A stretch of DNA of 64,000 bases from NCBI RefSeq assembly GCF_006345805.1, contig NC_043003.1, positions 31,062,001 through 31,126,000 of the forward strand, written 5' to 3'. This stretch comes from Octopus sinensis (taxonomy: Eukaryota). The translations under genes were made by a program, and so were the position numbers. A model generated the notes under the pieces. That model was not told the origin of the DNA. It saw only the letters and a program-made list of their open reading frames with translations, and made no database searches. This document shows, piece after piece, positions 18,240-63,124 of the stretch (position 1 is the first letter of the stretch; every line of letters begins with the position of its first letter).

Positions 18240-18259
18240 TATTATTATTATTATTTATA

Positions 18260-18470
18260 GGAATTAAATTTACGCTTATTAGATGAGGTAACAATAGATT
18301 TTATATTGTGTGGAGAGGAGTAGGATAATTTCAGAATAGACCTGAATAGTATTTATGGTGACGTGGGAAGTTAGAGTTCACCATTGTAAAAAAGGTTTAA
18401 AGCGAATGGGGGAGTAAACCAGAGAATCGATCTTCCCCATTGTTATTAGGCAAAATAGAGGACGCATAAT
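18260..18470 (-). mobile_element. Small decayed Penelope-like fragment
   Basis: Visible similarity to 40220-40340 (AATAG..GAATA(G/A)TATTTATG(G/T)TGACG(T/A)GGGAAGTT(A/G)GAGT). Confidence 0.4.
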
Positions 18471-28647: not shown

Positions 28648-28653
28648 ATAATA

Positions 28654-30300
28654 TCGGTGCCACCTCACTCTCCCGTGAACATCTAGATTCCTTCCTCTCT
28701 TTCGTTCAATCTTTCCATCCAGCCCTCCACTTCACTTCCACTATCTCCAACACCTCTGTCTCCTTCCTCGACATTTCGGTTAGCATTCTTCACTCCACTC
28801 TTACCACCTCCATTCACTACAAACACACAGACTCACACTCTTACCTCAACTTCTCTTCCTCCCACCCAGAACACACCAAGCTTTCCATCCCCTATTCCCA
28901 ATTCCTCCGTCTACGTAGGCTCTGTAGTGACGACCATGACTTTGAGACTCAGTCTCAACGTATGGCTCACCACTTCATCCTACGTGGATACCCCCTCACC
29001 ACTATCCACACCGCCCTTGCCAGAGCACGTTCCGTGGACCGTGTATCTGCTCTCTCTCCCCGAACCCGCCCTGTAGTCTCCCGCCTCCATTTTCCCCTCA
29101 CTTACCACCCCACGACCCTATCTCTCCAACGCACCATTCTTAGAGCTTTCCGTCATCTCCAGTCCGACCCGTCCACTTCACACCTCTTCCCTAACCGACC
29201 CCTCCCCTCTTTCAAACGAGCCCATAACCTTCGAGACCTTTTGGTCCATAGCTCCTTCCCTGACCCTACCTCCCAACCTGGCTCGTTCCCCTGCTCCCTC
29301 CCACGTTGCCGCACTTGCCCTTACCTCTCCAACACCACCCTCCTCACTGGCACCTATCATCGACCCTTTCGCATCATCAACTCCTTCACCTGCACCTCCA
29401 GCATTATTATCTATTGCGTCTCTTGCTCTCTCTGCCATTCCCTGTACATCGGACAAACGGGACGCCGCTTGGCTGACCGGTTCGCGGAACACCTTCGTGA
29501 CATCCACCTTGCGAACGACAACCGGTCTCACGCCATTTCCGCTCCACCGGTCACTCCTTGCAACACCTGTCTGTGTCAGTTTGTCCTACACAGAGGCCAT
29601 CCGGATTCCCGTTTGCGCCGTGAACAGGAATTAATCTTCTCTCTTCGCTCTTATATGCCATTTGGTCTCAACTACTCCCCCCCCTCCTCATCTAATCCCC
29701 CTCTCCCCCTCCTCATCTAACTCCCCCCGACCCCTACTTCCTTCAGCCTTCATCCTTTCACCCCTACTCCTCTTCCCTTCTTCCTTTTCTCCCTCCCTCC
29801 TTCTTCCCTCTTCCCCTTCCCTCTGCCTCTCACTCCCCTTCCTCTCCCCTCTCTCCTCTATCCTCCCTTCCTCTCCCCCTCCTCTTCTCCTCTCCTTCCT
29901 CTCTCCCTCCCCTCCCCTCACTAATCTCTCTCATACACACACACACACTCTTCTCATACACACACACCACACACTCTTATGTTTGAGCGGGGTCATTCAA
30001 CCCAATATCTCCCCTTTTCGCTCTTGCGTCTCATGTTTGATCTTTGACTTCTGGCCGAAATCAGATCGCCATGTTGATTCGCTAGCTTTTGTACGCATAT
30101 TTTTTTTCTCCTTCTTTCTGTGTTTTTTTTCTCTGTGTATCTTTCTGTTGAAGAGCGTAGGCTCGAAACGTTAAAGACTTGTTTCATTTATATTTCCTGA
30201 GCGCCATACTAATACAATTGTTTGTTTGTATTCCACCTGCCTTCATCTTTTGTTTATTTCCGTAAACCTGCCTTCGTCTTTTGTCTATTTTCATAAAGCT
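28654..30300 (+). mobile_element. 5'-truncated Penelope-like element (RT C-terminus plus GIY-YIG endonuclease, 3' pLTR) inserted in (TA)n
   Basis: [54 protein letters not shown], CxxPRCxTC and IIYCVSCSLCHSLYIGQTGRRLADRFAEH. TA tracts on both sides. Confidence 0.92.
30140..30177 (+). ncRNA. Minimal hammerhead-like motif in the PLE pLTR (variant core CUGUUGA)
   Basis: UCUUU-CUGUUGA-A-GAGC(GUAG)GCUC-GAA-ACGU-U-AAAGA. Stems I and II and a palindromic ACGU stem III are present, but core A6 is replaced by U. Confidence 0.55.
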
Positions 30301-30744: not shown

Positions 30745-30910
30745 GCGTTAGATCGCTAGCCACTACACATTCTTTATTTTCTCTCTTTGTTTCTTTCTGT
30801 GTTCCTTTCTGTGGAAGAGCATAGGCTCGAAACGTTAAAGACTTTTTCACTTCCCGAGCGTTAAACTAATGCATATGTTTGTTGTCTACACCACCTGTCT
30901 TTGTCTTTTG
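30745..30910 (+). mobile_element. Second partial PLE pLTR copy with hammerhead-like motif (30805-30840)
   Basis: GAT(T)CGCTAGC...CTTTCTGTGGAAGAGCATAGGCTCGAAACGTTAAAGACTT parallels 30075-30270. Confidence 0.7.
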
Positions 30911-31019: not shown

Positions 31020-33885
31020 CAAAGTAAAGTTGTAAGGTACCGCACAAGTGGAAATATATTAAAAGAAGGTTTGAAAATGCAATTTTAAGATGTTTATTCA
31101 CTTGATCAGTTTCACATTTTTAGAAAAAGATTGTCAAAAGTAAAATGTAAAGCTTTGTATAAGCTTTGTTGTGTTAAGAACTAGTTGTCACAGAAGTATT
31201 AAAATTCATATATTCTTCGATAATAATAAGAAAATGTTAAAAATAGTTTACAAGAAAGTATTAAGAAAATATTCAACAAAAAGTATTACACACACGTGAA
31301 CAAACACATATACACACACATGTGCACACACAACACCCTGACAATTCCCAATCACACACATACACACACACATCACCAGGATAATTATAACAACATAAAC
31401 ATACTTAGAGAGAGACACACATACGCACTCATTTATACACACTCACGTACACACACACTCGCGTACACACACACTCACGTACACACACATAACATCCCCA
31501 TCAATATAAAACACACCAATATACACACACGCACCCACAGACGCTATCATACACACACGCGAACAAACACATACACACATGCGCACACACAACACCCTAA
31601 CAAATGTTAATCACTTACATAAACACACACAATCGTACACACATATACACACACCATCCTACCAAATATAAAAGACACACAGACCCATTTACACACGCCA
31701 TAATAAACTCTGGGACCAAATAAAAACGCCCCCACACACAGAGACACAAACACATATACACATACACATAGAGACGTGCACAGAGACACGCACACATTCA
31801 CACTATTCTGACCTCTGAGGCCAGTCTCAAAAACCACTGAACCATGACAGACTAGCTCAGAAACAAAAAAAATCCTTTTAATTCCACATTGCTCTTTCTT
31901 CCTCCGACCCTAACCAATCTCCCACACTGTCCCTTAAAATAACAGACAATCCTTAGCTACACACGAGACAGAAAAAATGTCAGAAAGATAGGTTGGTTCT
32001 TCTCGAATTCTTTGTAAACTCTTAAATATATCTCCTTCTGTGTATATATATACTACTAAACAAACATGATTTTATTGAATTCTTAATACTTTTTCTGTGT
32101 ATGTATATATATACTATCAAACAAACATGATTTTTATTGAACTCTGCCTGTCTCTGTCTCTCTTGTTTACTCTTGTAGGTGCGAGGTCGTTGTGAAGTCT
32201 TGGTGCAGAAGAAGGAGGAGGAGAAGGAGGAGAAGAGAAGAAGAAGAAGAAGAAGAAGAAGAAGAAGAAGAAGAAGAAGAAGAAGAAGAAGAAGAGAAGA
32301 AGAAGAAGAGAGAAGAATGCGGGGAGTGAAGTGCATGATAGTAGTATGTAAATGGTTAAGTGCCCTGAAAGTGACCGTTGTGGATGGTAGTAGTGATTGA
32401 ATTATTGGGATATTCCTTTTGAATGTCTTGTTTATAAAATTTGCGTAGGTGTTATTCTAAACAGTAATAGTGGTAAAGTTAGGAAGAAGGTGGCGGAGAG
32501 GGAGAAGATGAAGAAGAAGAAGAAGGAGAAAGAGAAGGGAGAATAAGAAGGAATGTAGGCAGTATGATAGTAGTAGGGTGTTAAATGGTCAAGTAACTTA
32601 AAAGTGGGTCGTTATGGATTATAGCAGTGATTGGGACTGTTTTTTAATGAATTCTTGGAAATCTCTTGAGTGTATCATTTTAAATATTTGCGTGTGTATT
32701 TGTGTTATTCTAAGATATCCCAAATTAAAGAAGGATTTACAACCAAAAGCTCTCTCATACATCTTCACGCACAACCCTCTTAACAATGAAGCCATCGACA
32801 CCATCCTTCAAAACATTCCCCTCCTAAAAAAGGACCACAGAATGAACTTAATCCTCCAAACACACACCACCATAAAAAGCAAGAGACAACCCAAATCTAT
32901 GAAAAGTCTCCTAACACAAGCCCGAATACTCTCAACAACAACACAGAAGCCGTCAGTAAAAAGTGCAGAAGACCCAACTGTGGGATATGCGTCAATTTAA
33001 TTGATGGATCAGAGTTCTCCTTCAAACAGGAATAACGTTTCACAGTGAAAAGCAGCTTCACATGTGCCTCGGAAAACCTAATATACGCACTAGCCTGCTC
33101 TGGGTATCAAGAGCAATACATAGGCCAAACAAAAAACAGTCTACGTAAAAGAATGGCTCTTCACAGATTCCATTCAGCCAACACATCGACATTTGCAACA
33201 ATAAAAAAATCCAAGCTTCAGAATTTTCCCCTCTACCAATTCAGGGACGATACAACCTGTAGCCACGAATTAGTAAAGAGACTCTCTTTATTACAAAATA
33301 CAGACCCCTTTTGAACGCGTCTACAACACACGACATGTCCACCACGGCCTTAGAATAACACAAACACACACGCAAATATTAAAAATGATGCACTCAAGAG
33401 ATTTCCATGAATTCATTAAAAACAGTCCCAATCACTGCTATAATCCATAACGACTCACTTTTAAGTCACTTGACCATTTGACACCCTACTACTATCATAC
33501 TGCCTACATTCCTTCTTATTCTCTCTTCTCTTTCTCCTTCTTTTTCTTCGTCTTCTTCTTCTTCGCAACCTCCTTCCTAACTTTACCACTATTACTGTTT
33601 AGAGTAACACATACGCAAATTTTATAAATAAAACATTCAAAAGAGATATCTCAGTAATTCGATCACTGCTACCATCTACAACGGGTCACTTTCAGGGCAC
33701 TTGACAATTTAACATACTACTATCATGGCACTCCCGCATTCTTCTTCTTCTTCTTCTTCTTCTTCTTCTCTTCTTCTTCTTCTTCTTCTTCTTCTTCTTC
33801 TTCTTCTTCCGTACCAAGACTTCACAACAACCTCGAACCCACAAGAGTAAACAAGAGAGATAGAGACAGGAGGCAGAAACAAGGA
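31020..33885. mobile_element. Penelope-like element with an inverted 3' arm (left arm minus, GIY-YIG fragment and 3' region plus)
   Basis: 32713-33312 encodes KSSFTCASENLIYALACSGYQEQYIGQTKNSLRKRM. About 32140-32712 is the reverse complement of about 33350-33880. Confidence 0.8.
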
Positions 33886-34739: not shown

Positions 34740-34796
34740 AAACTGATTGACTAACTAACCAACGGACTAACTAAATAACCAACCAACCAACCAACC

Positions 34797-34863
<67 letters not shown>

Positions 34864-35236
34864 CAACTATCTAACCAATTAACTGACTGACTAACTAACC
34901 AACGGACTAACTAACCAAGTAACTGATTGACTAACTAACCAACGGACTAACTAACCAATTAACTGACTGACTAACTAACCAATTAATTGACTGACTAACT
35001 AACTAACCAACTAACTCACAGACCGACCGACTAACTAATCAACTTACTAACAAACTAGGAACTAATCATCTAACTAACCAATTGACTAATTAACCAATTC
35101 ACTGACTGATTGGCAAAATAACTAACTAGCTCTACGCCTATCTAAGTGATTAACTAACTAGCAAGATAGCTAGCTAACACAATAACAAACTATACTCACT
35201 AACCAACCAACCAACCAGCCAATCAACCAACCAACC

Positions 35237-35330
<94 letters not shown>

Positions 35331-35880
35331 TATCTATCTACCTAACTAACTAACTACTAACTAACTAACTAACCAACTATCTAACCAATTAACTGACTGA
35401 CTAACTAACCAACGGACTAACTAACCAAGTAACTGATTGACTAACTAACCAACGGACTAACTAACCAATTAACTGACTGACTAACTAACCATTAATTGAC
35501 TGACTAACTAACTAACCAACTAACTCACAGACCGACCGACTAACTAATCAACTTACTAACAAACTAGAACTATCATCTAACTAACCAATTGACTAATTAA
35601 CCAATTCACTGACTGATTGGCAAAATAACTAACTAGCTCTACGCCTATCTAAGTGATTAACTAACTAGCAAGATAGCTAGCTAACACAATAACAAACTAT
35701 ACTCACTAACCAACCAACCAACCAACCAACCAACCAACCAACCAACTAACTAACTAACTAACTAACTACTAACTAACTAACTAACTAACTACTAACTAAC
35801 TAACTACTAACTAACTAACTACTAACTAACTAACTAACTACTAACTAACTAACTAACTACTAACTAACTAACTAACTGAT
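34740..35880. repeat. Compound (AACT)n/(AACC)n/(ATCT)n satellite containing a block duplication of about 510 bp
   Basis: The variant string AACCAACTATCTAACCAATTAACTGACTG starts at both 34861 and 35371. Confidence 0.9.
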
Positions 35881-40039: not shown

Positions 40040-41058
40040 TAGGATTGACTGGATTTTTTTAATGGTCTAAAATGTTGGGTACGAAGTGGGAGCTATACAT
40101 GTTGGGCGCTCGTGTATTCAGAGTTGTTTCGGCGTACATTTTGATAATAGAGAGAAAGTTTTCGTCTATTAGAGGCTGTTATGATAGACTCAAAGTTGGG
40201 TGGGGTAGAGTAGGATAGCTTTAAAATAGATCTGTTAAAGATAGAATAATATTTATGTTGACGAGGGAAGTTGGAGTCTAATATATCAAAAAAGGATTTG
40301 GCTAAGTTCTTAAAATTTAATGAGAAGAGAGATTTATACCATAGAATAGAGCGCCCACCGCTTTTCTTTGGTTGCTTGGGGGTTGTGTGATCTGTATTTT
40401 TAGAAATTAGAGGTGGGGTTATATGGCCCGTTATTGTTAGCTGTTTTAGCTTTTGACCTAGTGTGATATGTATGCGTGTGGAGTCTAAGCTGCCTTAATC
40501 TGTGTTCTCCCGGGGTTCAAGTAGAGGGCACGTATGGTCTGTTATGATTATGATGGTTAGCCTGCCGTGGTGATATGAGTTGAGATATATGTTGCTTGAG
40601 CCTAGTATTAGAGATGTATTTTATTTGTTAGGCGAAGCCGCTAGCAGCGAACGCTTGGTTGTAGTATGGAGCGTGGTTATTGAATATTTCTTCAGTGGCT
40701 GAGAGGTTGGATATACGAAACGAAATACCCTTAACAATATTATCGAAGGTGGATTTGCGGTGATTGGAATTAATGTTTAAGCACTTAAGGTACTGGTTGG
40801 GTTTATGATATGGGGAGTATTAGGAGGAGGCTTCTAAGTTTAAAGTAACGTCTAAAAAAATTAGCGGTTTTATGGGAAATTTCAAAAGTAATGGATAGGT
40901 TGAGGCTGGAGAAGAATTTGTGTAGACGCTTCCTAATTCGTTCTAAAAAGGATTTATTAACGCGTAATCTCTGTTTAGGCCTCCCTAGATAAATGGGAAG
41001 TGTGTTCGGAGTTGATGGAGTAAGTAAGTATAGTCCAACGAGGTCCGCGATCTGGGTG
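40040..41058 (-). mobile_element. Decayed Penelope-like RT fragment (family distinct from 28654)
   Basis: [11 protein letters not shown]...IRKRLHKFFSSLNLSITFE..NFxxDVTLNL...HKPNQ..NINSNH..ISFRISNLSATEEIFN. Abuts (TA)n. Confidence 0.75.
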
Positions 41059-48499: not shown

Positions 48500-48617
48500 T
48501 AAGGAACATAGGCTTGAGACGTCAAAGGCATTTCTATTTTTCCTGACCGTCAAACTAATACACCTGCTTGTTGTTTCCTCACGTGTCTCTCTTTCGTTTT
48601 CTATACATTTGAACCTT
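48500..48617 (+). mobile_element. Decayed PLE pLTR end immediately upstream of array 1
   Basis: GGAACATAGGCTTGAGACGTCAAAGGC..TTCCTGACCGTCAAACTAATAC..TTGTTGT parallels 30812-30900. Confidence 0.55.
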
Positions 48618-48922
48618 ATATATATATATATATATATATTGTCATAAAAAAAGGGGTAGAATTAATTAATTGTTAATAAATTCGACCAAGCAGTATTCGG
48701 TATGTAAAGACCATTTACGGTATATTTGAAGTATTAATTTATAAAAATATGGTAAAGTAAAAAAATTCACTTTACCACACACCGAACTTTTCAGAAATAG
48801 CAGCCAAAAATTTGGCTATTTCTTCAACTGCAAATAAAAGTCTCCAGACAATGCATACTCAGAAAATAACTCACATAGGTATAAGGGAAAAAAACAATGA
48901 AAGATCACATCCATATACGATA

Positions 48923-48984
48923 CCCGAGGACAGTCTGTTTCTGGATTTGTGGGTAAAACGCCACTTTTCCTTCATCAGCTCAGA
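48923..48984 (-). ncRNA. Type I hammerhead ribozyme (array 1, left arm)
   Basis: Exact reverse complement of 49602-49663. Confidence 0.8.
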
Positions 48985-49601
48985 GATTTCTTCTGATTTA
49001 GATTTGAAAATACTAAGAATCAAACATACCCGTCCGATATCTGTAACATCGGACAAACCATGCCAGACACCCAGTACTAGCGAATCCAAAAATACGAATG
49101 AGATCTATTGTTCTCCCTGTCCACCCACGTGAGTCATAGAGCATTACATTTCTACAGAGGTAAAAACTGCAGTTCAAATTCTTGGAGAGAAAGCATTATA
49201 TTGTCATCAAAAAAGGGTGGCTGCTATTTCTGAAAAGTTCGGTGTGTGGTAAAGTGAATTTTTTTACTTTACCATATTTTTATAAATTAATACTTCAAAT
49301 ATACCGTAAATGGTCTTTACATACCGAATACTGCTTGGTCGAATTTATTAACAATTAATTAATTCTACCCCTTTTTTGATGACAATATAATGCTTTCTCT
49401 CCAAGAATTTGAACTGCAGTTTTTACCTCTGTAGAAATGTAATGCTCTATGACTCACGTGGGTGGACAGGGAGAACAATAGATCTCATTCGTATTCTTGG
49501 ATTCGCTAGTACTGGGTGTCTGGCATGGTTTGTCCGATGTTACAGATATCGGACGGGTATGTTTGATTCTTAGTATTTTCAAATCTAAATCAGAAGAAAT
49601 C

Positions 49602-49663
49602 TCTGAGCTGATGAAGGAAAAGTGGCGTTTTACCCACAAATCCAGAAACAGACTGTCCTCGGG
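49602..49663 (+). ncRNA. Type I hammerhead ribozyme (array 1, right arm), predicted cut after GUC at 49657
   Basis: UCUGAG-CUGAUGA-A-GGA..GUGG/CCAC..UCC-A-GAA-ACAG(A)CUGU-C-CUCGGG. Stem I is UCUGAG/CUCGGG and stem III is near-palindromic. Confidence 0.8.
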
Positions 49664-50859
49664 TATCGTATATGGATGTGATTTTTTTCCCTTATACCTA
49701 TATATATATATATATATAGTGTTTCACGGATTAAGAGGAAACATTTATATCACATTGTTACTGTTATTTCTGAATGTCGTTCCAATGTTAATAACGTGAT
49801 TTTCTTCTTCCTCTCTTGTCTCTAAATCAAACGATATAATTGAATAGAACCCCTCTTTCTCTTTCTCTGTCTCTCTATCTATCTTTTTCCCTCTTTGTTT
49901 TTTTTCCTTTCTCCAAAAAAAACATTAAAAAATTCTCCTCATCTAAACAAAGCATAGAACGTCCATAAAAGAACAAACAAAAAACAAAGCAAAAAATAAA
50001 ATGTCACATTCACCAAGGATACGCTGTTTTTATGATTTTGATTTTAATTCTTATCGTGAAGAGTTCGTTTAAACGAACGAAAGCGCTTATAATAAAGCAT
50101 TATATAATAAAGAATTATCCAAAATTCTGACTGCTTCCTTTTCTCTCGATACACACACACGCACAAACACACACAGACACTCACACACACAGACACACGC
50201 ATGCACGCACGCATGTATATGCATGAATGCATGTATGTGTGTATGTTTTTGTATGAACATGATTTTTGTATGAACATGATTTTAACATGATTAAAAGCAC
50301 AATGAGCGAAGAAAAATATCTCGTCTGTGTCAATGGCATTAATTTAGATAAATATATCAAGAGACATTGAATACTGCATGTAACAATTTCTTAATCAAGT
50401 TCTTAATTGAAAAAGAAAGCAACAACATATACTTACCTTGTTCAAAGCATGAAAATTGATTGTAGGAGATTAATTCTTAATTTCACAAAATTATTTCCTT
50501 TTTCTTCGAGAATTGTTAAAAATTACCAGTCGATTTTCGTTATATTTTCATCTAAGAAGATTTCGAGTGTACTACAATTTTTACGAATGGCATTAAGTGC
50601 AACATCCTTATTTTATGGTGGAAACGGTTATGTCATTCTTGAAATTTATTTTAGAAATGAGATATGAAGGAAGAAATATAAGCATTTTGGGCAATCTGAA
50701 GAATGCACAAACATTTAAAAAAGAAGAGTCAAGTTACTGCCCGCTCTCACTTACTGGGAAAAGATCTCCAAATCATTACATTCCTCGTCATAATTGTCCA
50801 TCTATCCATCCATTTTTACCGCCTACTATTTTACCGCCTACTAAAAAAAGGCTGAGTAG

Positions 50860-51237
50860 ACGCAGGAGTGGCTGTGTGGTAAGTAGCTTGCTTACCAACC
50901 ACATGGTTCCGGGTTCAGTCTCACTGCGTGGCACCTTGGGCAAGTGTCTTCTACTATAGCCTCGGGCTAACCAAAGCCTTGTGAGTGGATTTGATAGACG
51001 GAAACTGAAAGAAGCCCGTCGTATATATGTATATGTATATGTATAAATGTGTGTTTGTGTGTTTGTCTTTGTCCCCCCAACATCAGAGTTTTATGTCTCC
51101 GCAACTTAGCGGTTCGGCAAAAACCCTCCGATAGGATAAGTACTAGGCTTGCAAAGAATAAGTCCTGGGCTCGGTTTGCTCGACTAAAGGCGGTGTTCTA
51201 GCATGGCCGCAGTGAAATGACTGAAACAAGTAAAAGA

Positions 51238-51245
<8 letters not shown>
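50860..51245 (+). mobile_element. Full-length family B SINE
   Basis: GCAGGAGTGGCTGTGTGGTAAGTAGC head through the GACTGAAACAAGTAAAAGAGTAAAAGAG tail. Confidence 0.9.
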
Positions 51246-51296
<51 letters not shown>

Positions 51297-51630
51297 TTTT
51301 AGATCCCAGTTCATGGATATATTACGGAAACAAAAACAGGTCAATTAGCAAAAAAAAAGTGCAAAGATAAATAATAGGAAATCTAAAGTAAAATCATTTA
51401 AAAATTAATCAGTCAAACGTGGAGAGATACTGAGAAGAATCAATAGATAAGCTACCAGATTTATGATCTTACAAAACTTATCAGTTTGTGAACTATGTAA
51501 ATAAACAAGAATTTTGTTGGCCTCCAACGGATCATATTTTACTAAATTATACTAGTGTTATCATAAAGATAAAGCATTTGACATTTGTTTTTTTTTTATA
51601 TGATGATTAATTAATTGATGCATCTTGTTT

Positions 51631-51703
<73 letters not shown>

Positions 51704-51706
<3 letters not shown>

Positions 51707-54700
51707 AATTAAGGACTGAACACGAAAAGTGGACAGTCAACATGCTAGATATAGACGTCAAATCGCCATTCACCACAAAAGATTATGTTCTCAGATCAAA
51801 CTCAACACAAAACCATAGCAATAAACAAGTGAAAAATATACGAAATAAAATAATTACCCATGTACTAAATTAGTTTCAGCTGTTATTTTCCGCAAGGAAA
51901 ACTGCAGCCATCATCAGCATGGTCCGTTATAAATGTAATTTGCTGGACTAGATGCAAACACGATACCGAAATATCGCGTGCATGGAGTTCAGCCTATTAC
52001 ATTTGAATATACCTTTCAAATGCCTTTACTTTGGCGCGTTGAAACCCGAGAAAACCAGCCTGCAGCTAATAATTAGCAGCAGTTAATTTATCGGTTAGAG
52101 AACATATTTATTTATATAAAAGTAATTAAGGGTAGAAATTGATATTTATCAATTAAGACCAGTGGTCTAGCATATTAAAAAAGAATCCGAAGATTAAAAT
52201 ATTTATATATACCAATTAAGGACTGAACACGAAAAGTGGACAGTCAACATGCTAGATATAGACGTCAAATCGCCATTCACCACAAAAGATTATGTTCTCA
52301 GATCAAACTCAACACAAAACCATAGCAATAAACAAGTGAAAAATATACGAAATAAAATAATTACCCATGTACTAAATTAGTTTCAGCTGTTATTTTCCGC
52401 AGGAAAAACTGCAGCCATCATCAGAATGGTCCGTTATAAATGTAATTTGCTGGACTAGATGCAAACACGATACCGAAATATCGCGTGCATGGAGTTCAGC
52501 CTATTACATTTGAATATACCTTTCAAATGCCTTTACTTTGGCGCGTTGAAACCCGAGAAAACCAGCCTGCAGCTAATAATTAGCAACAGTTAAGAATGGT
52601 TGAGAACATAATGCTATGGTTTTGTGTTGAGTTTGATCTGAGAACATAATCTTTTGTGGTGAATGGCGATTTGACGTCTATATCTAGCATGTTGACTGTC
52701 CACTTTTCGTGTTCAGTCCTTAATTGGTATATATAAATATTTTAATCTTCGGATTCTTTTTTAATATGCTAGACCACTGGTCTTAATTGATAAATATCAA
52801 TTTCTACCCTTAATTAATTTTATATAAATAAATATGTTCTCTAACCGATAAATTAACTGCTGCTAATTATTAGCTGCAGGCTGGTTTTCTCGGGTTTCAA
52901 CGCGCCAAAGTAAAGGCATTTGAAAGGTAATTCAAATGTAATAGGCTGAACTCCATGCACGCGATATTTCGGTATCGTGTTTGCATCTAGTCCAGCAAAT
53001 TACATTTATAACGGACCATGCTGATGATGGCTGCAGTTTTCCTTGCGGAAAATAACAGCTGAAACTAATTTAGTACATGGGTAATTATTTTATTTCGTAT
53101 ATTTTTCACTTGTTTTGCTATGGTTTTGTGTTGAGTTTGATCTGAGAACATAATCTTTTGTGGTGAATGGCGATTTGAAGTCTATATCTAGCATGTTGAC
53201 TGTCCACTTTTCGTGTTCAGTCCTTAATTGGTATATATAAATATTTTAATCTTCGGATTCTTTTTTAATATGCTAGACCACTGGTCTTAATGATAAATAT
53301 CAATTTCTACCCTTAATTACTTTTATATAAATAAATATGTTCTCTAACCGATAAATTAACTGCTGCTAATTATTAGCTGCAGGCTGGTTTTCTCGGGTTC
53401 AACGCGCCAAAGAAGTAAAGGCATTTGAAAGGTATATTCAATGTAATAGGCTGAACTCCATGCACGCGATATTTCGGTATCGTGTTTGCATCTAGTCAGC
53501 AATTACATTTATAACGGACCATGCTGATGATGGCTGCAGTTTTCCTTGCGGAAAATAACAGCTGAAACTAATTTAGTACATGGGTAATTATTTTATTTCG
53601 TATATTTTCACTGTTTATTGCTATGGTTTTGTGTTGAGTATGATCTGAGAACATAATCTTTTGTGGTGAATGGCGATTTGAAGTCTATATCTAGCATGTT
53701 GACTGTCCACTTTTCGTGTTCAGTCCTTAATTGGTATATATAAATATTTTAATCTTCGGATTCTTTTTTAATATGCTAGACCACTGGTCTTAATTGATAA
53801 ATATCAATTTCTACCCTAATTAATTATATAAATAAATATGTTCTCTAACCGAAATTAACTGCTGCTAATTATTAGCTGCAGGCTGGTTTTCTCGGGTTTC
53901 AACGCGCCAAAGTAAAGGCATTTGAAAGGTATATTCAAATGTAATAGGCTGAACTCCATGCACGCGATATTTCGGTATCGTGTTTGCATCTAGTCCAGCA
54001 AATTACATTTATAACGGACCATGCTGATGATGGCTGCAGTTTTCCTTGCGGAAAATAACAGCTGAAACTAATTTAGTACATGGGTAATTATTTTATTTCG
54101 TATATTTTTCACTTGTTTATTGCTATGGTTTTTGTTGAGTTTGATCTGAGAACATAATCTTTTGTGGTGAATGGCGATTTGACGTCTATATCTAGCATGT
54201 TGACTGTCCACTTTTCGTGTCAGTCCTTAATTGGTATATATAAATATTTTAATCTTCGGATTCTTTTTTAATATGCTAGACCACTGGTCTTAATTGATAA
54301 ATATCAATTTCTACCCTTAATTAATTTTATATAAATAAATATGTCTCTAACCGATAAATTAACTGCTGCTAATTATTAGCTGCAGGCTGGTTTTCTCGGG
54401 TTTCAACGCGCCAAAGTAAAGGCATTTGAAAGGTATATTCAAATGTAATAGGCTGAACTCCATGCACGCGATATTTCGGTATCGTGTTTGCATCTAGTCC
54501 AGCAAATTACATTTATAACGGACCATGCTGATGATGGCTGCAGTTTTCCTTGCGGAAAATAACAGCTGAAACTAATTTAGTACATGGGTAATTATTTTAT
54601 TTCGTATATTTTTCACTTGTTTATTGCTATGGTTTTGTGTTGAGTTTGATCTGAGAACATAATCTTTTGTGGTGAATGGCGATTTGACGTCTATATCTAG

Positions 54701-54825
54701 CATGTTGACTGTCCAATTTTCGTGTTCAGTCCTTAATTGGTATATATAAATATTTTAATCTTCGGATTCTTTTTTAATATGCTAGACCACTGGTCTTAAT
54801 TGATAAATATCAATTTCTACCCTTA

Positions 54826-54836
<11 letters not shown>
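51704..54836. repeat. Hammerhead array 2: 507-bp unit, about 1.8 copies followed by about 4.4 inverted copies, flanked by (TA)n
   Basis: ACCAATTAAGGACTGAACACG at 51704 and 52211. Orientation switches at about 52610. Copies are nearly identical. Confidence 0.95.
53016..53080 (+). ncRNA. Type I hammerhead ribozyme (array 2), predicted cut after GUA at 53075. Further copies: 53519-53583, 54019-54083, 54523-54587 (+); 51858-51922, 52365-52429 (-)
   Basis: CCAUG-CUGAUGA-U-GGCUG..UUUUCC(UUGC)GGAAAA..CAGCU-GAA-ACUAA(U)UUAGU-A-CAUGG. All three stems pair and the core is intact. Confidence 0.88.
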
Positions 54837-54866
<30 letters not shown>

Positions 54867-54871
<5 letters not shown>

Positions 54872-57800
54872 GGCTTAGTAAAATAAATTACTTTACCGCA
54901 TACTGAACTCATTAGAAATAGCAGCTAAAAAAACATTTATAAAACTATTTCTAATACTTAAAGAAAACCTCTCTCATATAGTGTTTGCTCAATTCAACTC
55001 ACGGAAGTATGGGGGGTAGAGACATTAAAAAATCAGATGCAAAGGTTATTTGAGAACGTACGTTTCAGATTAGTCAAAACTCGACATTTCTATCATCAGC
55101 TCAGAACTCCCTGGTTTGGATTTGAAAACACTGAAAGTGGGAGCATACTCCTTCGGCCTCCTATCGCTTTTGAAGATCCGCTCGTAACTAACAGTGCCAA
55201 CAAACCCAAATATGCAAGCGAAGAATTTCTGCTCTCCCCTTTCCACCAGCGTGGGTTAAAATCAGCAAACATTATGCTTTTTTCGGTAAAATCCGAGGCA
55301 TTTAAATAGAGAGAGATGAATTATAATTTCAACAATTGAGGGTAAAATTAATTAATTAATCAATTTCACCAAGTGTTCAGTATGCAAAGGGACCATTTAA
55401 GGCGAATTCAAATTATTACATTATATAAAAGGGCTTAGTAAAATAAATTACTTTACCGCATACTGAACTCATTAGAAATAGCAGCTAAAAAAACATTTAT
55501 AAAACTATTTCTAATACTTAAAGAAAACCTCTCTCATATAGTGTTTGCTCAATTCAACTCACGGAAGTATGGTGGGTAGAGACATTAAAAAATCAGATGC
55601 AAAGGTTATTTGAGAACGTACGTTTCAAGATTAGTCAAAACTCGACATTTCTATCATCAGCTCAGAACTCCCTGGTTTGGATTTGAAAACACTGAAAGTG
55701 GGAGCATACTTCTTCGGCCTCCTATCGCTTTTGAAGATCCGCTCGTAACTAACAGTGCCAACAAACCCAAATATGCAAGCGAAGAATTTCTGCTTCCCCT
55801 TTCCACCAGCGTGGGTTAAAATCAGCAAACACTATGCTTTTTTCGGAAAATCCGAGGCATTTAAATAGAGAGAGATGAATTATAATTTCAACAATTGAGG
55901 GTAAAATTAATTAATTAATCAATTTCACCAAGTGTTCAGTATGCAAAGGGACCATTTAAGGCGAATTCAAATTATTACATTATATAAAAGGGCTTAGTAA
56001 AATAAATTACTTTACCGCATACTGAACTCATTAGAAATAGCAGCTAAAAAAACATTTATAAAACTATTTAATACTTAAAGAAAACCTCTCTCATATAGTG
56101 TTTGCTCTATTCAACTCACGGAAGTATGGGGGGTAGAGACATTAAAAAATCAGATGCAAAGGTTATTTGAGAACGTACGTTTCAAGATTAGTCAAAACTC
56201 GACATTTCTATCATCAGCTCAGAACTCCCTGGTTTGGATTTGAAAACACTGAAAGTGGGAGCATACTCCTTCGGCCTCCTATCGCTTTTGAAGATCCGCT
56301 CGTAACTAACAGTGCCAACAAACCCAAATATGCAAGCGAAGAATTTCTGCTCTCCCCTTTCCACCAGCGTGGGTTAAAATCAGCAAACACTATGCTTTTT
56401 TCGGTAAAATCCGAGGCATTTAAATAGAGAGAGATGAATTATAATTTCAACAATTGAGGGTAAAATTAATTAATTAATCAATTTCACCAAGTGTTCAGTA
56501 TGCAAAGGGACCATTTAAGGCGAATTCAAATTATTACATTATATAAAAGGGCTTAGTAAAATAAATTAAATTACTTTACCGCATACTGAACTCATTAGAA
56601 ATAGCAGCTAAAAAAACATTTATAAAATTATTTCTAATACTTAAAGAAAACCTCTCTCATATAGTGTTTGCTCAATTCAACTCACGGAAGTATGGGGGGT
56701 AGAGACATTAAAAAATCAGATGCAAAGGTTATTTGAGAACGTACGTTTCAAGATTAGTCAAAACTCGACATTTCTATCATCAGCTCAGAACTCCCTGGTT
56801 TGGATTTGAAAACACTGAAAGTGGGAGATACTCCTTCGGCCTCCTATCGCTTTTGAAGATCCGCTCGTAACTAACAGTGCCAACAAACCCAAATATGCAA
56901 GCGAAGAATTCTGCTCTCCCCTTTCCACCAGCGTGGGTTAAAATCAGCAAACACTATGCTTTTTTCGGTAAAATCCGAGGCATTTAAATAGAGAGAGATG
57001 AATTATAATTTCAACAATTGAGGGTAAAATTAATTAATTAATCAATTTCACCAAGTGTTCAGTATGCAAAGGGACCATTTAAGGCGAATTCAAATTATTA
57101 CATTATATAAAAGGGCTTAGTAAAATAAATTACTTTACCGCATACTGAACTCATTAGAAATAGCAGCTAAAAAAACATTTATAAAACTATTTCTAATACT
57201 TAAAGAAAACCTCTCTCATATAGTGTTTGCTCAATTCAACTCACGGAAGTATGGGGGGTAGAGACATTAAAAAATCAGAGGCAAAGGTTATTTGAGAACG
57301 TACGTTTCAAGATTAGTCAAAACTCGACATTTCTATCATCAGCTCAGAACTCCCTGGTTTGGATTTGAAAACACTGAAAGTGGGAGCATACTCCTTCGGC
57401 CTCCTATCGCTTTTGAAGATCCGCTCGTAACTAACAGTGCCAACTGTTGGGTTTGTTGGCACTGTTAGTTACGAGCGGATCTTCAAAAGCGATAGGAGGC
57501 CGAAGGAGTATGCTCCCACTTTCAGTGTTTTCAAATCCAAACCAGGGAGTTCTGAGCTGATGATAGAAATGTCGAGTTTTGACTAATCTTGAAACGTACG
57601 TTCTCAAATAACCTTTGCATCTGATTTTTTAATGTCTCTACCCCCCATACTTCCGTGAGTTGAATTGAGCAAACACTATATGAGAGAGGTTTTCTTTAAG
57701 TATTAGAAATAGTTTTATAAATGTTTTTTTAGCTGCTATTTCTAATGAGTTCAGTATGCGGTAAAGTAATTTATTTTACTAAGCCCTTTTATATAATGTA

Positions 57801-59020
57801 ATAATTTGAATTCGCCTTAAATGGTCCCTTTGCATACTGAACACTTGGTGAAATTGATTAATAATTAATTTTACCCTCAATTGTTGAAATTATAATTCAT
57901 CTCTCTCTATTTAATGCCTCGGATTTTACCGAAAAAAGCATAGTGTTTGCTGATTTTAACCCACGCTGGTGGAAAGGGGAGAGCAGAAATTCTTCGCTTG
58001 CATATTTGGGTTTGTTGGCACTGTTAGTTACGAGCGGATCTTCAAAAGCGATAGGAGGCCGAAGGAGTATGCTCCCACTTTCAGTGTTTTCAAATCCAAA
58101 CCAGGGAGTTCTGAGCTGATGATAGAAATGTCGAGTTTTGGACTAATCTTGAAACGTACGTTCTCAAATAACCTTTGCATCTGATTTTTTAATGTCTCTA
58201 CCCCCCATACTTCCGTGAGTTGAATTGAGCAAACACTATATGAGAGAGGTTTTCTTTAAGTATTAGAAATAGTTTTATAAATATTTTTTTAGCTGCTATT
58301 TCTAATGAGTTCAGTATGCGGTAAAGTAATTTAATTTATTTTACTAAGCCCTTTTATATAATGTAATAATTTGAATTCGCCTAAATGGTCCTTTGCATAC
58401 TGAACACTTGGTGAAATTGATTAATTAATTAATTTTACCCTCACCCTCAATTGTTGAAATTATAATTCATCTCTCTCTATTTAAATGCCTCGGATTTTAC
58501 CGAAAAAAGCATAGTGTTTGCTGATTTTAACCCACGCTGGTGGAAAGGGGAGAGCAGAAATTCTTCGCTTGCATATTTGGGTTTGTTGGCACTGTTAGTT
58601 ACGAGCGGATCTTCAAAAGCGATAGGAGGCCGAAGGAGTATGCTCCCACTTTCAGTGTTTTCAAATCCAAACCAGGGAGTTCTGATCTGATGATAGAAAT
58701 GTCGAGTTTTGACTAATCTTGAAACGTACGTTCTCAAATAACCTTTGCATCTGATTTTTTAATGTCTCTACCCCCCATACTTCCGTGAGTTGAATTGGGC
58801 AAACACTATATGAGAGAGGTTTTCTTTAAGTATTAGAAATAGTTTTATAAATATTTTTTTAGCTGCTATTTCTAATGAGTTCAGTATGCGGTAAAGTAAT
58901 TTATTTTACTAAGCCCTTTTATATAATGTAATAATTTGAATTCGCCTTAAATGGTCCTTTGCATACTGAACACTTGGTGAAATTGATTAATTAATTAATT
59001 TTACCCTCAATTGTTGAAAT
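54867..59020. repeat. Hammerhead array 3: 560-bp unit, about 4.6 copies followed by about 2.8 inverted copies (fold-back at about 57449), flanked by (TA)n
   Basis: GGGCTTAGTAAAATAAATTAC at 54871, 55431 and onward. The junction is CAGTGCCAAC-tgttgggttt-GTTGGCACTG. Confidence 0.95.
57553..57606 (+). ncRNA. Type I hammerhead ribozyme (array 3), predicted cut after GUU at 57602. Further copies: 58112-58166, 58683-58736 (+); 55051-55103, 55611-55664, 56168-56221, 56734-56787, 57293-57346 (-)
   Basis: UGAG-CUGAUGA-U-AGA..GUC(GAGUUUU)GAC..UCU-U-GAA-ACGUACGU-U-CUCA. Stem III is the perfect palindrome ACGUACGU. Confidence 0.8.
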
Positions 59021-59094
59021 ATATATATATATATTATATATATATATATATATATAATATATATATATAAATAACATTCTTTTATTCTTTTATT

Positions 59095-59301
59095 CTTTTA
59101 TTGGTTCCAGTCATTTAACTTCGGCCATGTTAGTACACCGCCTTTAGTCGAACAAATTGACTCCAGGACTTATTCTTTGTAAGCATAGTACTTGTTCTAT
59201 CGGTCTCGTTTGTCGAATTGCTAAGTTAGGGGGGCGAAAATACACCAACATCGGTTGTCAAGCGATGTAGGGGCACAAATACAGATACACAGACATATAC
59301 A

Positions 59302-61853: not shown

Positions 61854-63022
61854 CAGCCTTGGCCAAAAGTATTAGGTCACCCCAATGTTTTGGGGTTCTG
61901 CTATCTCAATGTTAATGAAACTCATGCACATGGTACATTATGGTATATTTCACAATACACATCGGTTTTAATATCTGGCTGACCCTCCTTTAGCATCAGT
62001 TACCGCTTTTATACGATTAGGCATTGAATCAACTAGTTTCTTGCAGGTGCTAGGCACAATTTTACTCCATTCTTCTCTCAACTTTTGTTACAAATGCTCT
62101 TTATTTTTAATTGTTGTGTTCCTGATAGCTTCACCAAGAGTTCCCTATAGGTGTTCAATTGGATTTAGATCGGGACCTTGAGCTGGCCAGTCCGTGGAAA
62201 CAATACTCTGTCTTAAACCAATTGATGAGTATTCTTTGCTGTATGACATGGAGCGTTGTCCTGTTGAATGATAATACTGTTTTTCGACACTCCTGGATGC
62301 AATTTAGCAATTGATGGCTCTAAAACATCTGATAAAGTAGAAACATAACTGAATTTATCCTTCCCTGACGTAAAAACATTTCTCCAGGTCCTGTGACAGA
62401 ACATGCAGACCCACACCATGATAGAACTAGACATTCAGCCTTAAATGCTTCCCCAACTCTGCAATGCACGTAAGTTGCACCAGATGTACCGAAAACCTGA
62501 GTAAAACATGAAAAATAACATTAGCTTTATGTTGGATACCTTTTTAAATATTTTGGGCAACAAACCAGTTACGTTAAGTTTATATGTTGATTGAATACAT
62601 GTACTATCTTACCTCATAGTTATTTTCATCAGACCATATGGCTTTTGACCATTGCTCACTGGCCCAATTTGAGTGGTTTTTGGCCTAGTGAAGACATTTA
62701 TCCATATTCACTTCAGAAACCCATGGCTTCTTCCTGGCTTTACAGCGTTTCAAACCGTACTCTACAAGCCTTCTTCTAACAGTTCTGGTTGATATTTGTA
62801 TAGTATTTGCCTTGTTGAAGTCTGTACAGAGCTCCAACGATGTTTTTCTTCTGTGTCTGAGCAAATGACAGATGATGGATCTGTCATCACAAGGTGATGT
62901 AACCTTTTTTCTGCCTGTTCTTTGCATTGTCTTCACATCTTTTGTCTCTCTGAAGTGCTTGAGAGTCGTTTGCACCCACATCGAGAACATTTGGGGTGGC
63001 TTAATACTTTTGGCCAAGGCTG
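61854..63022 (-). mobile_element. Tc1-like DNA transposon with TIRs and TA TSD, carrying a defective transposase with an intron
   Basis: TIR CAGCCTTGGCCAAAAGTATTA(G/A)G(T/C)CACCCCAA at both ends, flanked by TA. Peptides RTGRKKVTSPCDDR, STRTVRRRL..GL..ARKKP, WSDE, QQDNAPCHTAK and WPAQGPDLNPIEH. Confidence 0.93.
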
Positions 63023-63124
63023 TATATATAATTTTATAAATCTGAAACCTGGACGAAAAGAATTCACTTTAGAGGAATACACAGTCGGTTCGGTATTTCA
63101 TTTACAATCACAGACACATCTTTT

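What the first reader, a model, noticed from the sequence alone, without database searches (positions are those of the whole stretch)
49602..57606. All three hammerheads have a self-complementary stem III, suggesting dimeric (double-hammerhead) activity
Seen: stem III is ACAG-A-CUGU (array 1), ACUAA-U-UUAGU (array 2) and ACGUACGU (array 3). These are three different palindromes with 0-1 central nucleotides. Known: short palindromic stem III hammerheads can cleave as dimers in which two stem III strands pair. Inference: cleavage would be favoured in tandem transcripts and damped in the monomer circle, which gives the tandem organisation a function.
Basis: partly seen in the sequence, partly recalled or inferred. 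Interest (0 to 1): 0.75.

Follow-up and report, generated by a model that had tools for sequence, protein, structure and literature searches.

The report
Pairing hammerheads in two-armed retrozyme insertions
These are young copies of three protein-free jumping repeats whose self-cutting RNA motifs carry a palindromic stem, an already published design that likely lets two motifs pair up to cut, and the copies sit as two back-to-back arms ending at two fixed sites, which likely records copying by a Penelope-type retrotransposon enzyme.

Summary
The three stem III palindromes are real and beyond chance. A scan blind to stem III found 24 hammerhead types in 1.15 Mb of this genome, 21 with 0-2 unpaired central bases, and 34 of 38 loop pairs that a monomer hairpin cannot form are complementary. 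Qualifications: array 1 has one hammerhead per strand, so no cis dimer here. Folding favours the double form by only 0.4-3.9 kcal/mol, and the array 2 ribozyme is predicted to fold as a monomer. No cleavage was measured. The elements are non-LTR retrozymes (504-561 nt units) inserted into (TA)n as two head-to-head arms. One arm ends at site A and the other at site B, about 95 nt apart, in 37 of 37 classifiable arrays, and both arms share one haplotype. This likely reflects priming from both DNA ends by a Penelope-type enzyme. The scan noted that architecture before on other DNA of this genome.

The parts
48635..49217 (-). Array 1 (family 1, 561-nt unit), left arm; outer end at site B (unit position ~293 from the cut), joined to (TA)n
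48923..48984 (-). Family 1 type I hammerhead, the only one on this strand; core C3 at 48978, predicted cut after 48929
49218..49700 (+). Array 1, right arm; atypical outer end about 43 nt after the cut, joined to (TA)n
49602..49663 (+). Family 1 hammerhead; stem III ACAG-A-CUGU 49648-49656, GUC triplet, A.A at the base of stem II; the only one on this strand
51692..52593 (-). Array 2 (family 2, 504-507 nt unit), left arm, ends at site A (~169); hammerheads at 51917 and 52424 (the latter with a broken first stem I pair)
52594..52608 (.). Array 2 centre: 15 nt between the two 5'-truncated inner ends
52609..54840 (+). Array 2, right arm, ends at site B (~250-264); hammerheads at 53021, 53524, 54024, 54528; stem III ACUAA-U-UUAGU, GUA triplet
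54834..54867 (.). (TA)17 target shared by array 2 (right end) and array 3 (left end)
54862..57444 (-). Array 3 (family 3, 556-566 nt unit), left arm, ends at site A (~191); hammerheads at 55099, 55660, 56217, 56783, 57342
57447..59025 (+). Array 3, right arm, ends at site B (~291) in (TA)n; hammerheads at 57557, 58116 and 58687 (the last with a broken first stem I pair); stem III ACGUACGU, GUU triplet, U.U at the base of stem II

Best explanation
The three arrays are young insertions of three related protein-free repeat families (non-LTR retrozymes) whose type I hammerhead motifs have palindromic stem III, likely kept so that two motifs can pair into a double hammerhead, and the arrays were likely written into (TA)n by a borrowed Penelope-type (Neptune-like) reverse transcriptase-endonuclease that primed both DNA ends on the same RNA sequence. 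Shown: the motifs, the palindromes, the head-to-head arms, the fixed A/B ends, the shared haplotype of both arms, and intact RT + GIY-YIG reading frames elsewhere in the genome. Inferred: transcription outward along an arm; cleavage helped by stem III pairing (strongest for families 3 and 1, weak or dispensable for family 2); ligation to unit-length circles; repeated read-around of the circle from site A at one DNA end and site B at the other; joining of the two cDNAs at the centre. Dimer dependence would let multimers be cut while the circular template survives, but it is a graded, inherited property and not the cause of the tandem layout.
For: Palindromes: 6 of 7 blind hits in 400 kb against 0 of 2 in ten shuffles; 21 of 24 types and 34 of 38 in-loop pairs. 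One family 1 array (L130) and one contig of run X1 differ only at the central unpaired base of stem III. Homoduplex against hairpin energies. Published precedent with cleavage data: axolotl monomers 6% and 22% cleaved, dimers much more (PMC7229834). Mobility: 182, 218 and 176 matches among about 40 scored of 1425, 1330 and 1312 candidates, mostly 95-99% identical. Architecture: of 63 arrays 44 are two-armed; 37 of 37 with both ends at A or B have one of each; 7 have one atypical end; one-armed arrays end at A in 10, B in 8, elsewhere in 1. Arm-to-arm mismatches at polymorphic sites are 1/256, 4/202 and 1/180, against 30%, 17% and 16% between arrays. The A arm is the longer in 17 of 37, and in three short insertions of a related family neither arm lies within the other (L116, L121, L155), so neither arm is a fold-back copy. 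An autonomous element (L172) shows the same two arms with a tail of about 30 nt at one end only. A purified Penelope-like protein nicks and extends both strands and starts at two internal RNA sites that define the tail (PMC11167929). Site A lies inside a stem with both-side changes in 11 of 18 pairs across 4 families.
Against: No cleavage, transcript end or circle was observed. The double form costs 1.5-2.8 kcal/mol more than one single hammerhead in a dimer, and the family 2 monomer fold costs only 1.9 kcal/mol. Stem I continues into a 53-77 bp rod that would have to be swapped to form a cis dimer. None of the three has G10.1-C11.1 and family 3 has a GUU site, so activity may be low; 8 of 9 Xenopus retrozyme dimers did not cleave in vitro. 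Hammerhead cleavage was not needed for insertion in vitro by the anole protein. Of variants shared by 2 or more units, 57 are in all informative units but 29 only in some, which a pure single-circle origin does not predict. No autonomous partner with a homologous 3' region was found among 50 endonuclease loci. The loci were picked from the top of BLAST lists, not at random.
Confidence: 0.66

Rival explanations
1. The ribozymes cleave adequately as monomers (helped by the long stem I rod, tertiary contacts or the bound protein), and the palindrome is an inherited or secondary trait with little regulatory effect in these arrays.
For: Family 2 can form 4 bp plus a triloop and its monomer fold costs 1.9 kcal/mol. 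The long local rod favours the monomer topology during transcription. Coral and mussel retrozymes cleave as monomers at about 0.8 and 0.1 per min. The anole element's hammerhead is protein-assisted.
Against: Complementary inner loop bases bring nothing to a monomer hairpin yet are kept across families whose stem III sequences differ (34 of 38). Monomer folds of families 1 and 3 cost 6.7 and 5.6 kcal/mol.
Confidence: 0.25
2. The template is an uncleaved linear multimer from a donor array, and the hammerheads rarely cut; array homogeneity comes from later conversion or duplication.
For: Unprocessed RNA was the main insertion substrate in vitro and no reads ended at the cut site for the anole element. 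29 variants are shared by only some units. Non-standard 10.1-11.1 pairs and a GUU site.
Against: Cores and stems are kept in families that differ widely elsewhere. Arrays carry many different haplotypes (11 of 15, 13 of 19, 9 of 12 distinct), each largely uniform, with 10 array-private variants in all informative units, which points to frequent single-unit bottlenecks. Arms reach about 10 units.
Confidence: 0.2
3. The inverted arrays are long-read assembly artefacts or fold-back products of a single cDNA.
For: A few centres are near-perfect hairpin tips (array 3 here, L095, L129). Unit copies show scattered one-base indels.
Against: The flanks on the two sides are not mirrored, and the two ends fall at different fixed sites in 37 of 37. 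Either arm can be the longer. In three short insertions neither arm is contained in the other.
Confidence: 0.05

Closest known systems
Double-hammerhead type I ribozymes of metazoan repeats and Penelope-like elements (Cervera and de la Pena 2014, PMC4209133, parts 1-2 of 4 read; review PMC6765202 and PMC6466107, passages; Forster 1988 and Lunse 2017 not seen, cited through these)
   Same: Type I fold, short helix III with palindromic loop, short helix I (4-6 bp), long helix II, extra or unpaired base at the foot of helix II; the same proposed regulation (cut in multimers, spared in monomer circles).
   Different: Helix III can form 2-4 bp as a monomer (1-2 bp in the classical cases). G10.1-C11.1 is absent in all three. 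Helix II is interrupted by a 3x3 internal loop. Family 3 uses GUU.
Metazoan non-LTR retrozymes (PMC7229834, passages and parts 2-3 of 6 read; bioRxiv 10.64898/2026.07.22.740005, parts 1-3 of 5 read)
   Same: ORF-less, AT-rich tandem units with one type I hammerhead each, dispersed in many young arrays, coexisting with autonomous Penelope-like elements; proposed non-autonomous derivatives of them.
   Different: Units of 504-561 nt are longer than the 150-450 bp of the first paper (within the 51-972 bp of the preprint). The parts I read describe no head-to-head two-armed arrays or fixed ends, and the preprint sampled no mollusc.
Insertion structure of EN+ Penelope-like elements (Craig et al. 2021, PMC8557442, passages; Frangieh et al. 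2024, PMC11167929, parts 1-2 of 4 read)
   Same: Partial tandems, an inverted 5'-truncated copy, microsatellite (TA)n targets, a tail at one end only, two internal RT start sites.
   Different: The tail is about 95-100 nt instead of 30-40 bp, the element encodes no protein, arms hold up to about 10 units, and the one-A-one-B rule is strict in this sample (37 of 37).

Membership tests
Type I hammerhead ribozyme | Core CUGANGA ... GAAA ... UH with helices I, II, III | tested here: met
   14 motifs in the window. Rfam gave no hammerhead hit at gathering score or at E up to 10, so these are variants outside its models.
Type I hammerhead ribozyme | Conserved G10.1-C11.1 pair | tested here: not met
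   A.A (family 1), extra U then G.U (family 2), U.U (family 3); axolotl HHR_Amex2 also has U.U and cleaves.
Type I hammerhead ribozyme | Loop 1-loop 2 tertiary contact | not tested
   Only secondary-structure folding was run.
Type I hammerhead ribozyme | Site-specific self-cleavage | not testable with these tools
   Only assembled contigs were available, which cannot show RNA ends.
Double-hammerhead (dimer-cleaving) class | Short helix III with self-complementary loop | tested here: met
Double-hammerhead (dimer-cleaving) class | Two or more same-strand copies nearby (arrays 2 and 3) | tested here: met
   4 and 5 intact same-strand copies in the long arms.
Double-hammerhead (dimer-cleaving) class | Two or more same-strand copies nearby (array 1) | tested here: not met
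   One per strand here; family 1 forms tandems of up to 9 hammerheads at other loci.
Double-hammerhead (dimer-cleaving) class | Dimer fold favoured over monomer fold | tested here: inconclusive
   Double minus two singles -3.9, -0.4, -2.9; double minus one single +2.8, +1.5, +2.7 kcal/mol (families 1, 2, 3); core tertiary energy is not modelled.
Metazoan non-LTR retrozyme | Tandem units, each with a type I hammerhead, no ORF, GC under 50% | tested here: met
   no stop-to-stop frame of 120 aa or more in 51692-59025.
Metazoan non-LTR retrozyme | Many dispersed, young genomic copies | tested here: met
Metazoan non-LTR retrozyme | Expressed as linear and circular unit-length RNA | not testable with these tools
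   No listed holder is on record as RNA; contigs cannot tell a circle from a tandem.
Penelope-type insertion | Inverted 5'-truncated arm, tail at one end, (TA)n target | tested here: met
   44 of 63 arrays two-armed; 37 of 37 one A plus one B.
Penelope-type insertion | Tail of 30-40 bp | tested here: not met
   About 95-100 nt in all three families; about 30 nt in the autonomous element L172.
Penelope-type insertion | Sequence homology to the pLTR of an autonomous element in the genome | tested here: inconclusive
   None seen in 30 + 20 loci drawn from 150 scored of 5029 endonuclease candidates.

The most novel reading that the evidence does not exclude
The stem III palindrome is also the clasp of the insertion complex. 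Two sibling RNA units from one transcript stay paired through stem III, and a dimeric Penelope-type protein primes one at site A and the other at site B. One RNA dimer would then explain the palindrome, the strict one-A-one-B ends and the shared haplotype of both arms.
Probability: 0.1. Interest if true: 0.8.

Novelty: new member of a known kind. Interest (0 to 1): 0.42.

Why it matters
The dimer idea itself is established, so on that point these are three more examples, though a useful graded series (2, 3 and 4 bp monomer stems in related, recently active elements) for measuring when a hammerhead needs a partner. The insertion footprint matters more. How Penelope-like elements make tandem-plus-inverted insertions with a tail at one end is stated as open in PMC8557442. 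A 500-nt RNA with two mapped start sites, a strict pairing rule and intact candidate enzymes in the same genome makes priming from both DNA ends, and read-around of a circle, directly testable in vitro.

Tried and rejected
Rfam: no hammerhead family matched at gathering score in the window or at E up to 10 in 48500-59200; the weak miRNA-family hits there are palindrome or microsatellite noise. Expression: no RNA holder listed as such; runs guessed to be RNA hold the three families as contigs, and one 591-nt single-haplotype contig spans a whole family 1 unit in run X1, but contigs show neither ends nor circularity, so this is not used as evidence. Extra conservation of the hammerhead inside each young family: none clear (14/3123, 18/4586, 11/3717 against 203/38598, 162/37202, 153/37748). 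Coupled arm lengths, as two enzymes chasing each other on one circle would give: only weak (rho 0.33, p 0.049, n 37). Two random RNAs from the pool, paired through stem III, as templates for the two arms: rejected, since arms are identical at scored sites in 38 of 44 arrays (3 of these had no informative site) against 168 of 652 between-array pairs. A consensus hairpin before site B was seen in single-sequence folds but not recovered in the four-family alignment fold. One search used one locus on the wrong strand and is not used. Autonomous partner not found; of the few DNA matches near endonuclease loci I read one (L155) and it was a separate retrozyme insertion; the others I assumed to be the same. 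Lunse et al. 2017 is not held. Searches for retrozyme/octopus/cephalopod/hammerhead, Penelope/twin priming/inverted repeat/rolling circle and retrozyme/inverted/head-to-head/palindromic (listings only, 20 of 27, 25 of 35 and 25 of 10,829 shown) surfaced no paper on two-armed retrozyme arrays; this covers the open library only. No supplements were read; supplementary figures of PMC4209133 and PMC7229834 may show mollusc hammerheads of this type.
Full report
Observation. The window is AT-rich, microsatellite-laden animal DNA from a 2.72-Gb assembly. Earlier notes of the scan call the genome an octopus; I did not test that. Two further copies have a broken first stem I pair. Rfam has no model that matches them. 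Array 1 has one hammerhead on each strand; arrays 2 and 3 have up to four and five intact copies on one strand. All three lack the usual G10.1-C11.1 pair, and family 3 has a GUU site, which from general knowledge (recalled, no call) is a weaker triplet.

Is the palindrome more than a hairpin? A monomer hairpin needs a loop of at least three bases, so only complementarity inside that loop is informative. With a descriptor that ignores stem III, 40 evenly spaced 10-kb stretches gave 7 hits, 6 with at most two central unpaired bases, while ten shuffles gave 2 hits and none palindromic. Across all 183 sequences held, 21 of 24 hammerhead types are palindromic by that rule. In them 34 of 38 in-loop pairs are complementary, or 38 of 44 if the three dropped types are included. 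The types share ancestry in part, but their stem III sequences and lengths differ (6 to 16 nt), so the symmetry has been kept through change. Variation within family 1 falls on the unpaired centre in one whole array and in one public contig. Selection for pairing between two copies is the simplest reading.

How strong is the dimer requirement? Isolated stem III hairpins are unstable (+2.1, +0.8, +2.4 kcal/mol) and the homoduplexes stable (-6.9, -6.7, -9.8). In whole units the gap shrinks. The single fold costs 6.7, 1.9 and 5.6 kcal/mol in the circle (families 1, 2, 3). The double fold in a dimer is 3.9, 0.4 and 2.9 better than two single folds, but 2.8, 1.5 and 2.7 worse than one. The model omits tertiary energy of the core, which would count twice in a dimer, so it is inconclusive. 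Stem I extends into a rod of 77, 55 and 53 bp that forms locally and would have to exchange partners for a cis dimer. I expect graded behaviour: family 2 active as a monomer, families 1 and 3 helped by pairing.

What is known. PMC4209133 describes short palindromic helix III in metazoan type I hammerheads, the dimer fold in tandem repeats, and regulation that allows cleavage in multimers and avoids it in monomeric circles, with low activity even as dimers for the Penelope-type variants. PMC7229834 shows both outcomes: axolotl motifs need dimers, coral and mussel motifs do not. A 2026 preprint derives animal retrozymes from Penelope-like elements and saw cleavage in 1 of 9 dimers tested.

What the arrays are. 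Each family has well over a thousand candidate places in the genome, the scored ones mostly 95-99% identical. I took 20 loci per family from those lists, plus the window. Of 63 arrays 44 have two head-to-head arms with hammerhead sense pointing outward, and their outer ends almost always join TA-rich microsatellite. Each family has two preferred ends about 95-100 nt apart, both at TA-rich motifs: site A and site B. All 37 two-armed arrays with both ends classifiable have one A and one B; 7 have one atypical end, among them array 1 here; one-armed arrays end at A in 10, B in 8 and elsewhere in 1. Both arms carry the same haplotype (1/256, 4/202, 1/180 mismatches against 16-30% between arrays). 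Neither arm is a fold-back copy of the other. Site A lies in a stem that covaries across four families.

Mechanism. These are the marks of Penelope-type insertion: inverted truncated copy, tail at one end, microsatellite target (PMC8557442). The purified anole protein nicks and extends both strands and starts at two internal RNA sites that delimit the tail (PMC11167929). The genome holds uninterrupted 775-781 aa frames with RT (just under the Pfam cut-off) and GIY-YIG (over it); their assignment to the Neptune clade rests on a CxxC linker read by eye. One autonomous insertion has the same two arms with a tail of about 30 nt at one end. Their hammerhead motifs also have palindromic stem III. 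I infer that both DNA ends are primed, one at A and one at B, on the same RNA sequence, which is read round repeatedly if it is a circle. Uniform, array-specific haplotypes favour a single-unit template (57 variants in all informative units, 10 of them private to one array), but 29 variants in only some units argue for mosaic templates, later duplication or assembly error. The tandem layout is then a product of copying. Dimer-dependent cleavage fits it, since multimers would be cut and the template circle spared, but does not explain it.

Limits. No cleavage, RNA end or circle was seen; only contigs of runs guessed to be RNA were available. The partner element was not identified. The loci were not a random sample. 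The two-armed reading was reached here, and eight earlier notes of this scan on other DNA of the same genome say much the same; these are not independent evidence.

Verdict. Observation confirmed; interpretation partly supported and already published; the elements are new members of a known kind. The remaining interest lies in the strict two-site footprint and in a natural series for testing dimer dependence.

Noticed in passing
window 28650-29717 (+): 5'-truncated Penelope-like frame (end of RT, CxxC linker, weak GIY-YIG match E=0.022) starting in (TA)n; another copy at L062.
   Followed up: partly
window about 30140-30175 and 30810-30845 (+): Minimal hammerhead-like motifs downstream of that frame, with ACGU as stem III but a changed core (CUGUUGA or CUGUGGA in place of CUGANGA); read by eye.
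   Followed up: no
window 32602-33000 (+), 40093-40494 (-) and 18257-18436: Further short retrotransposon-like fragments; the first matches the frame at 28650, the second matches 18257-18436; no Pfam support.
   Followed up: partly
window 62685-63065 (-): Tc1/Tc3-type transposase fragment (Pfam HTH_Tnp_Tc3_2, E=4.7e-10).
   Followed up: no
L140:2361, L149, L153-L155, L168:6163: An autonomous Penelope-like family has a hammerhead-like motif with U3-A8 in place of C3-G8 and stem III ACAUGU, about 75 nt before its (TA)n end; PMC4209133 reports this core covariation in Schistosoma.
   Followed up: partly
L163:2174-3610 and L166: A 479-aa frame of no clear Pfam family overlaps the start of the RT-endonuclease frame in full-length copies.
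   Followed up: no
hammerhead types listed: Many types have a mismatch at the foot of stem II (A.A, A.C, U.U, U.C) and a long stem II with internal loops, which may be a recurrent variant of the motif in this genome.
   Followed up: no
L034, L091 (stem III of 16 nt): One family has a monomer-type stem III (4 bp, 8-nt loop) whose loop still holds a central CUAG palindrome.
   Followed up: no
L089, L106, L111, L117, L118 and window 54834-54867: Different retrozyme families often sit side by side in the same (TA)n tract, as arrays 2 and 3 do here.
   Followed up: no
window 57400-57500: The centre of array 3 is a near-perfect hairpin tip (arms end at unit positions 410 and 402), as in L095 and L129; read-through transcription would give a long double-stranded RNA.
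   Followed up: no
window 34750-35877: Long degenerate (ACTA)n tract of about 1.1 kb.
   Followed up: no
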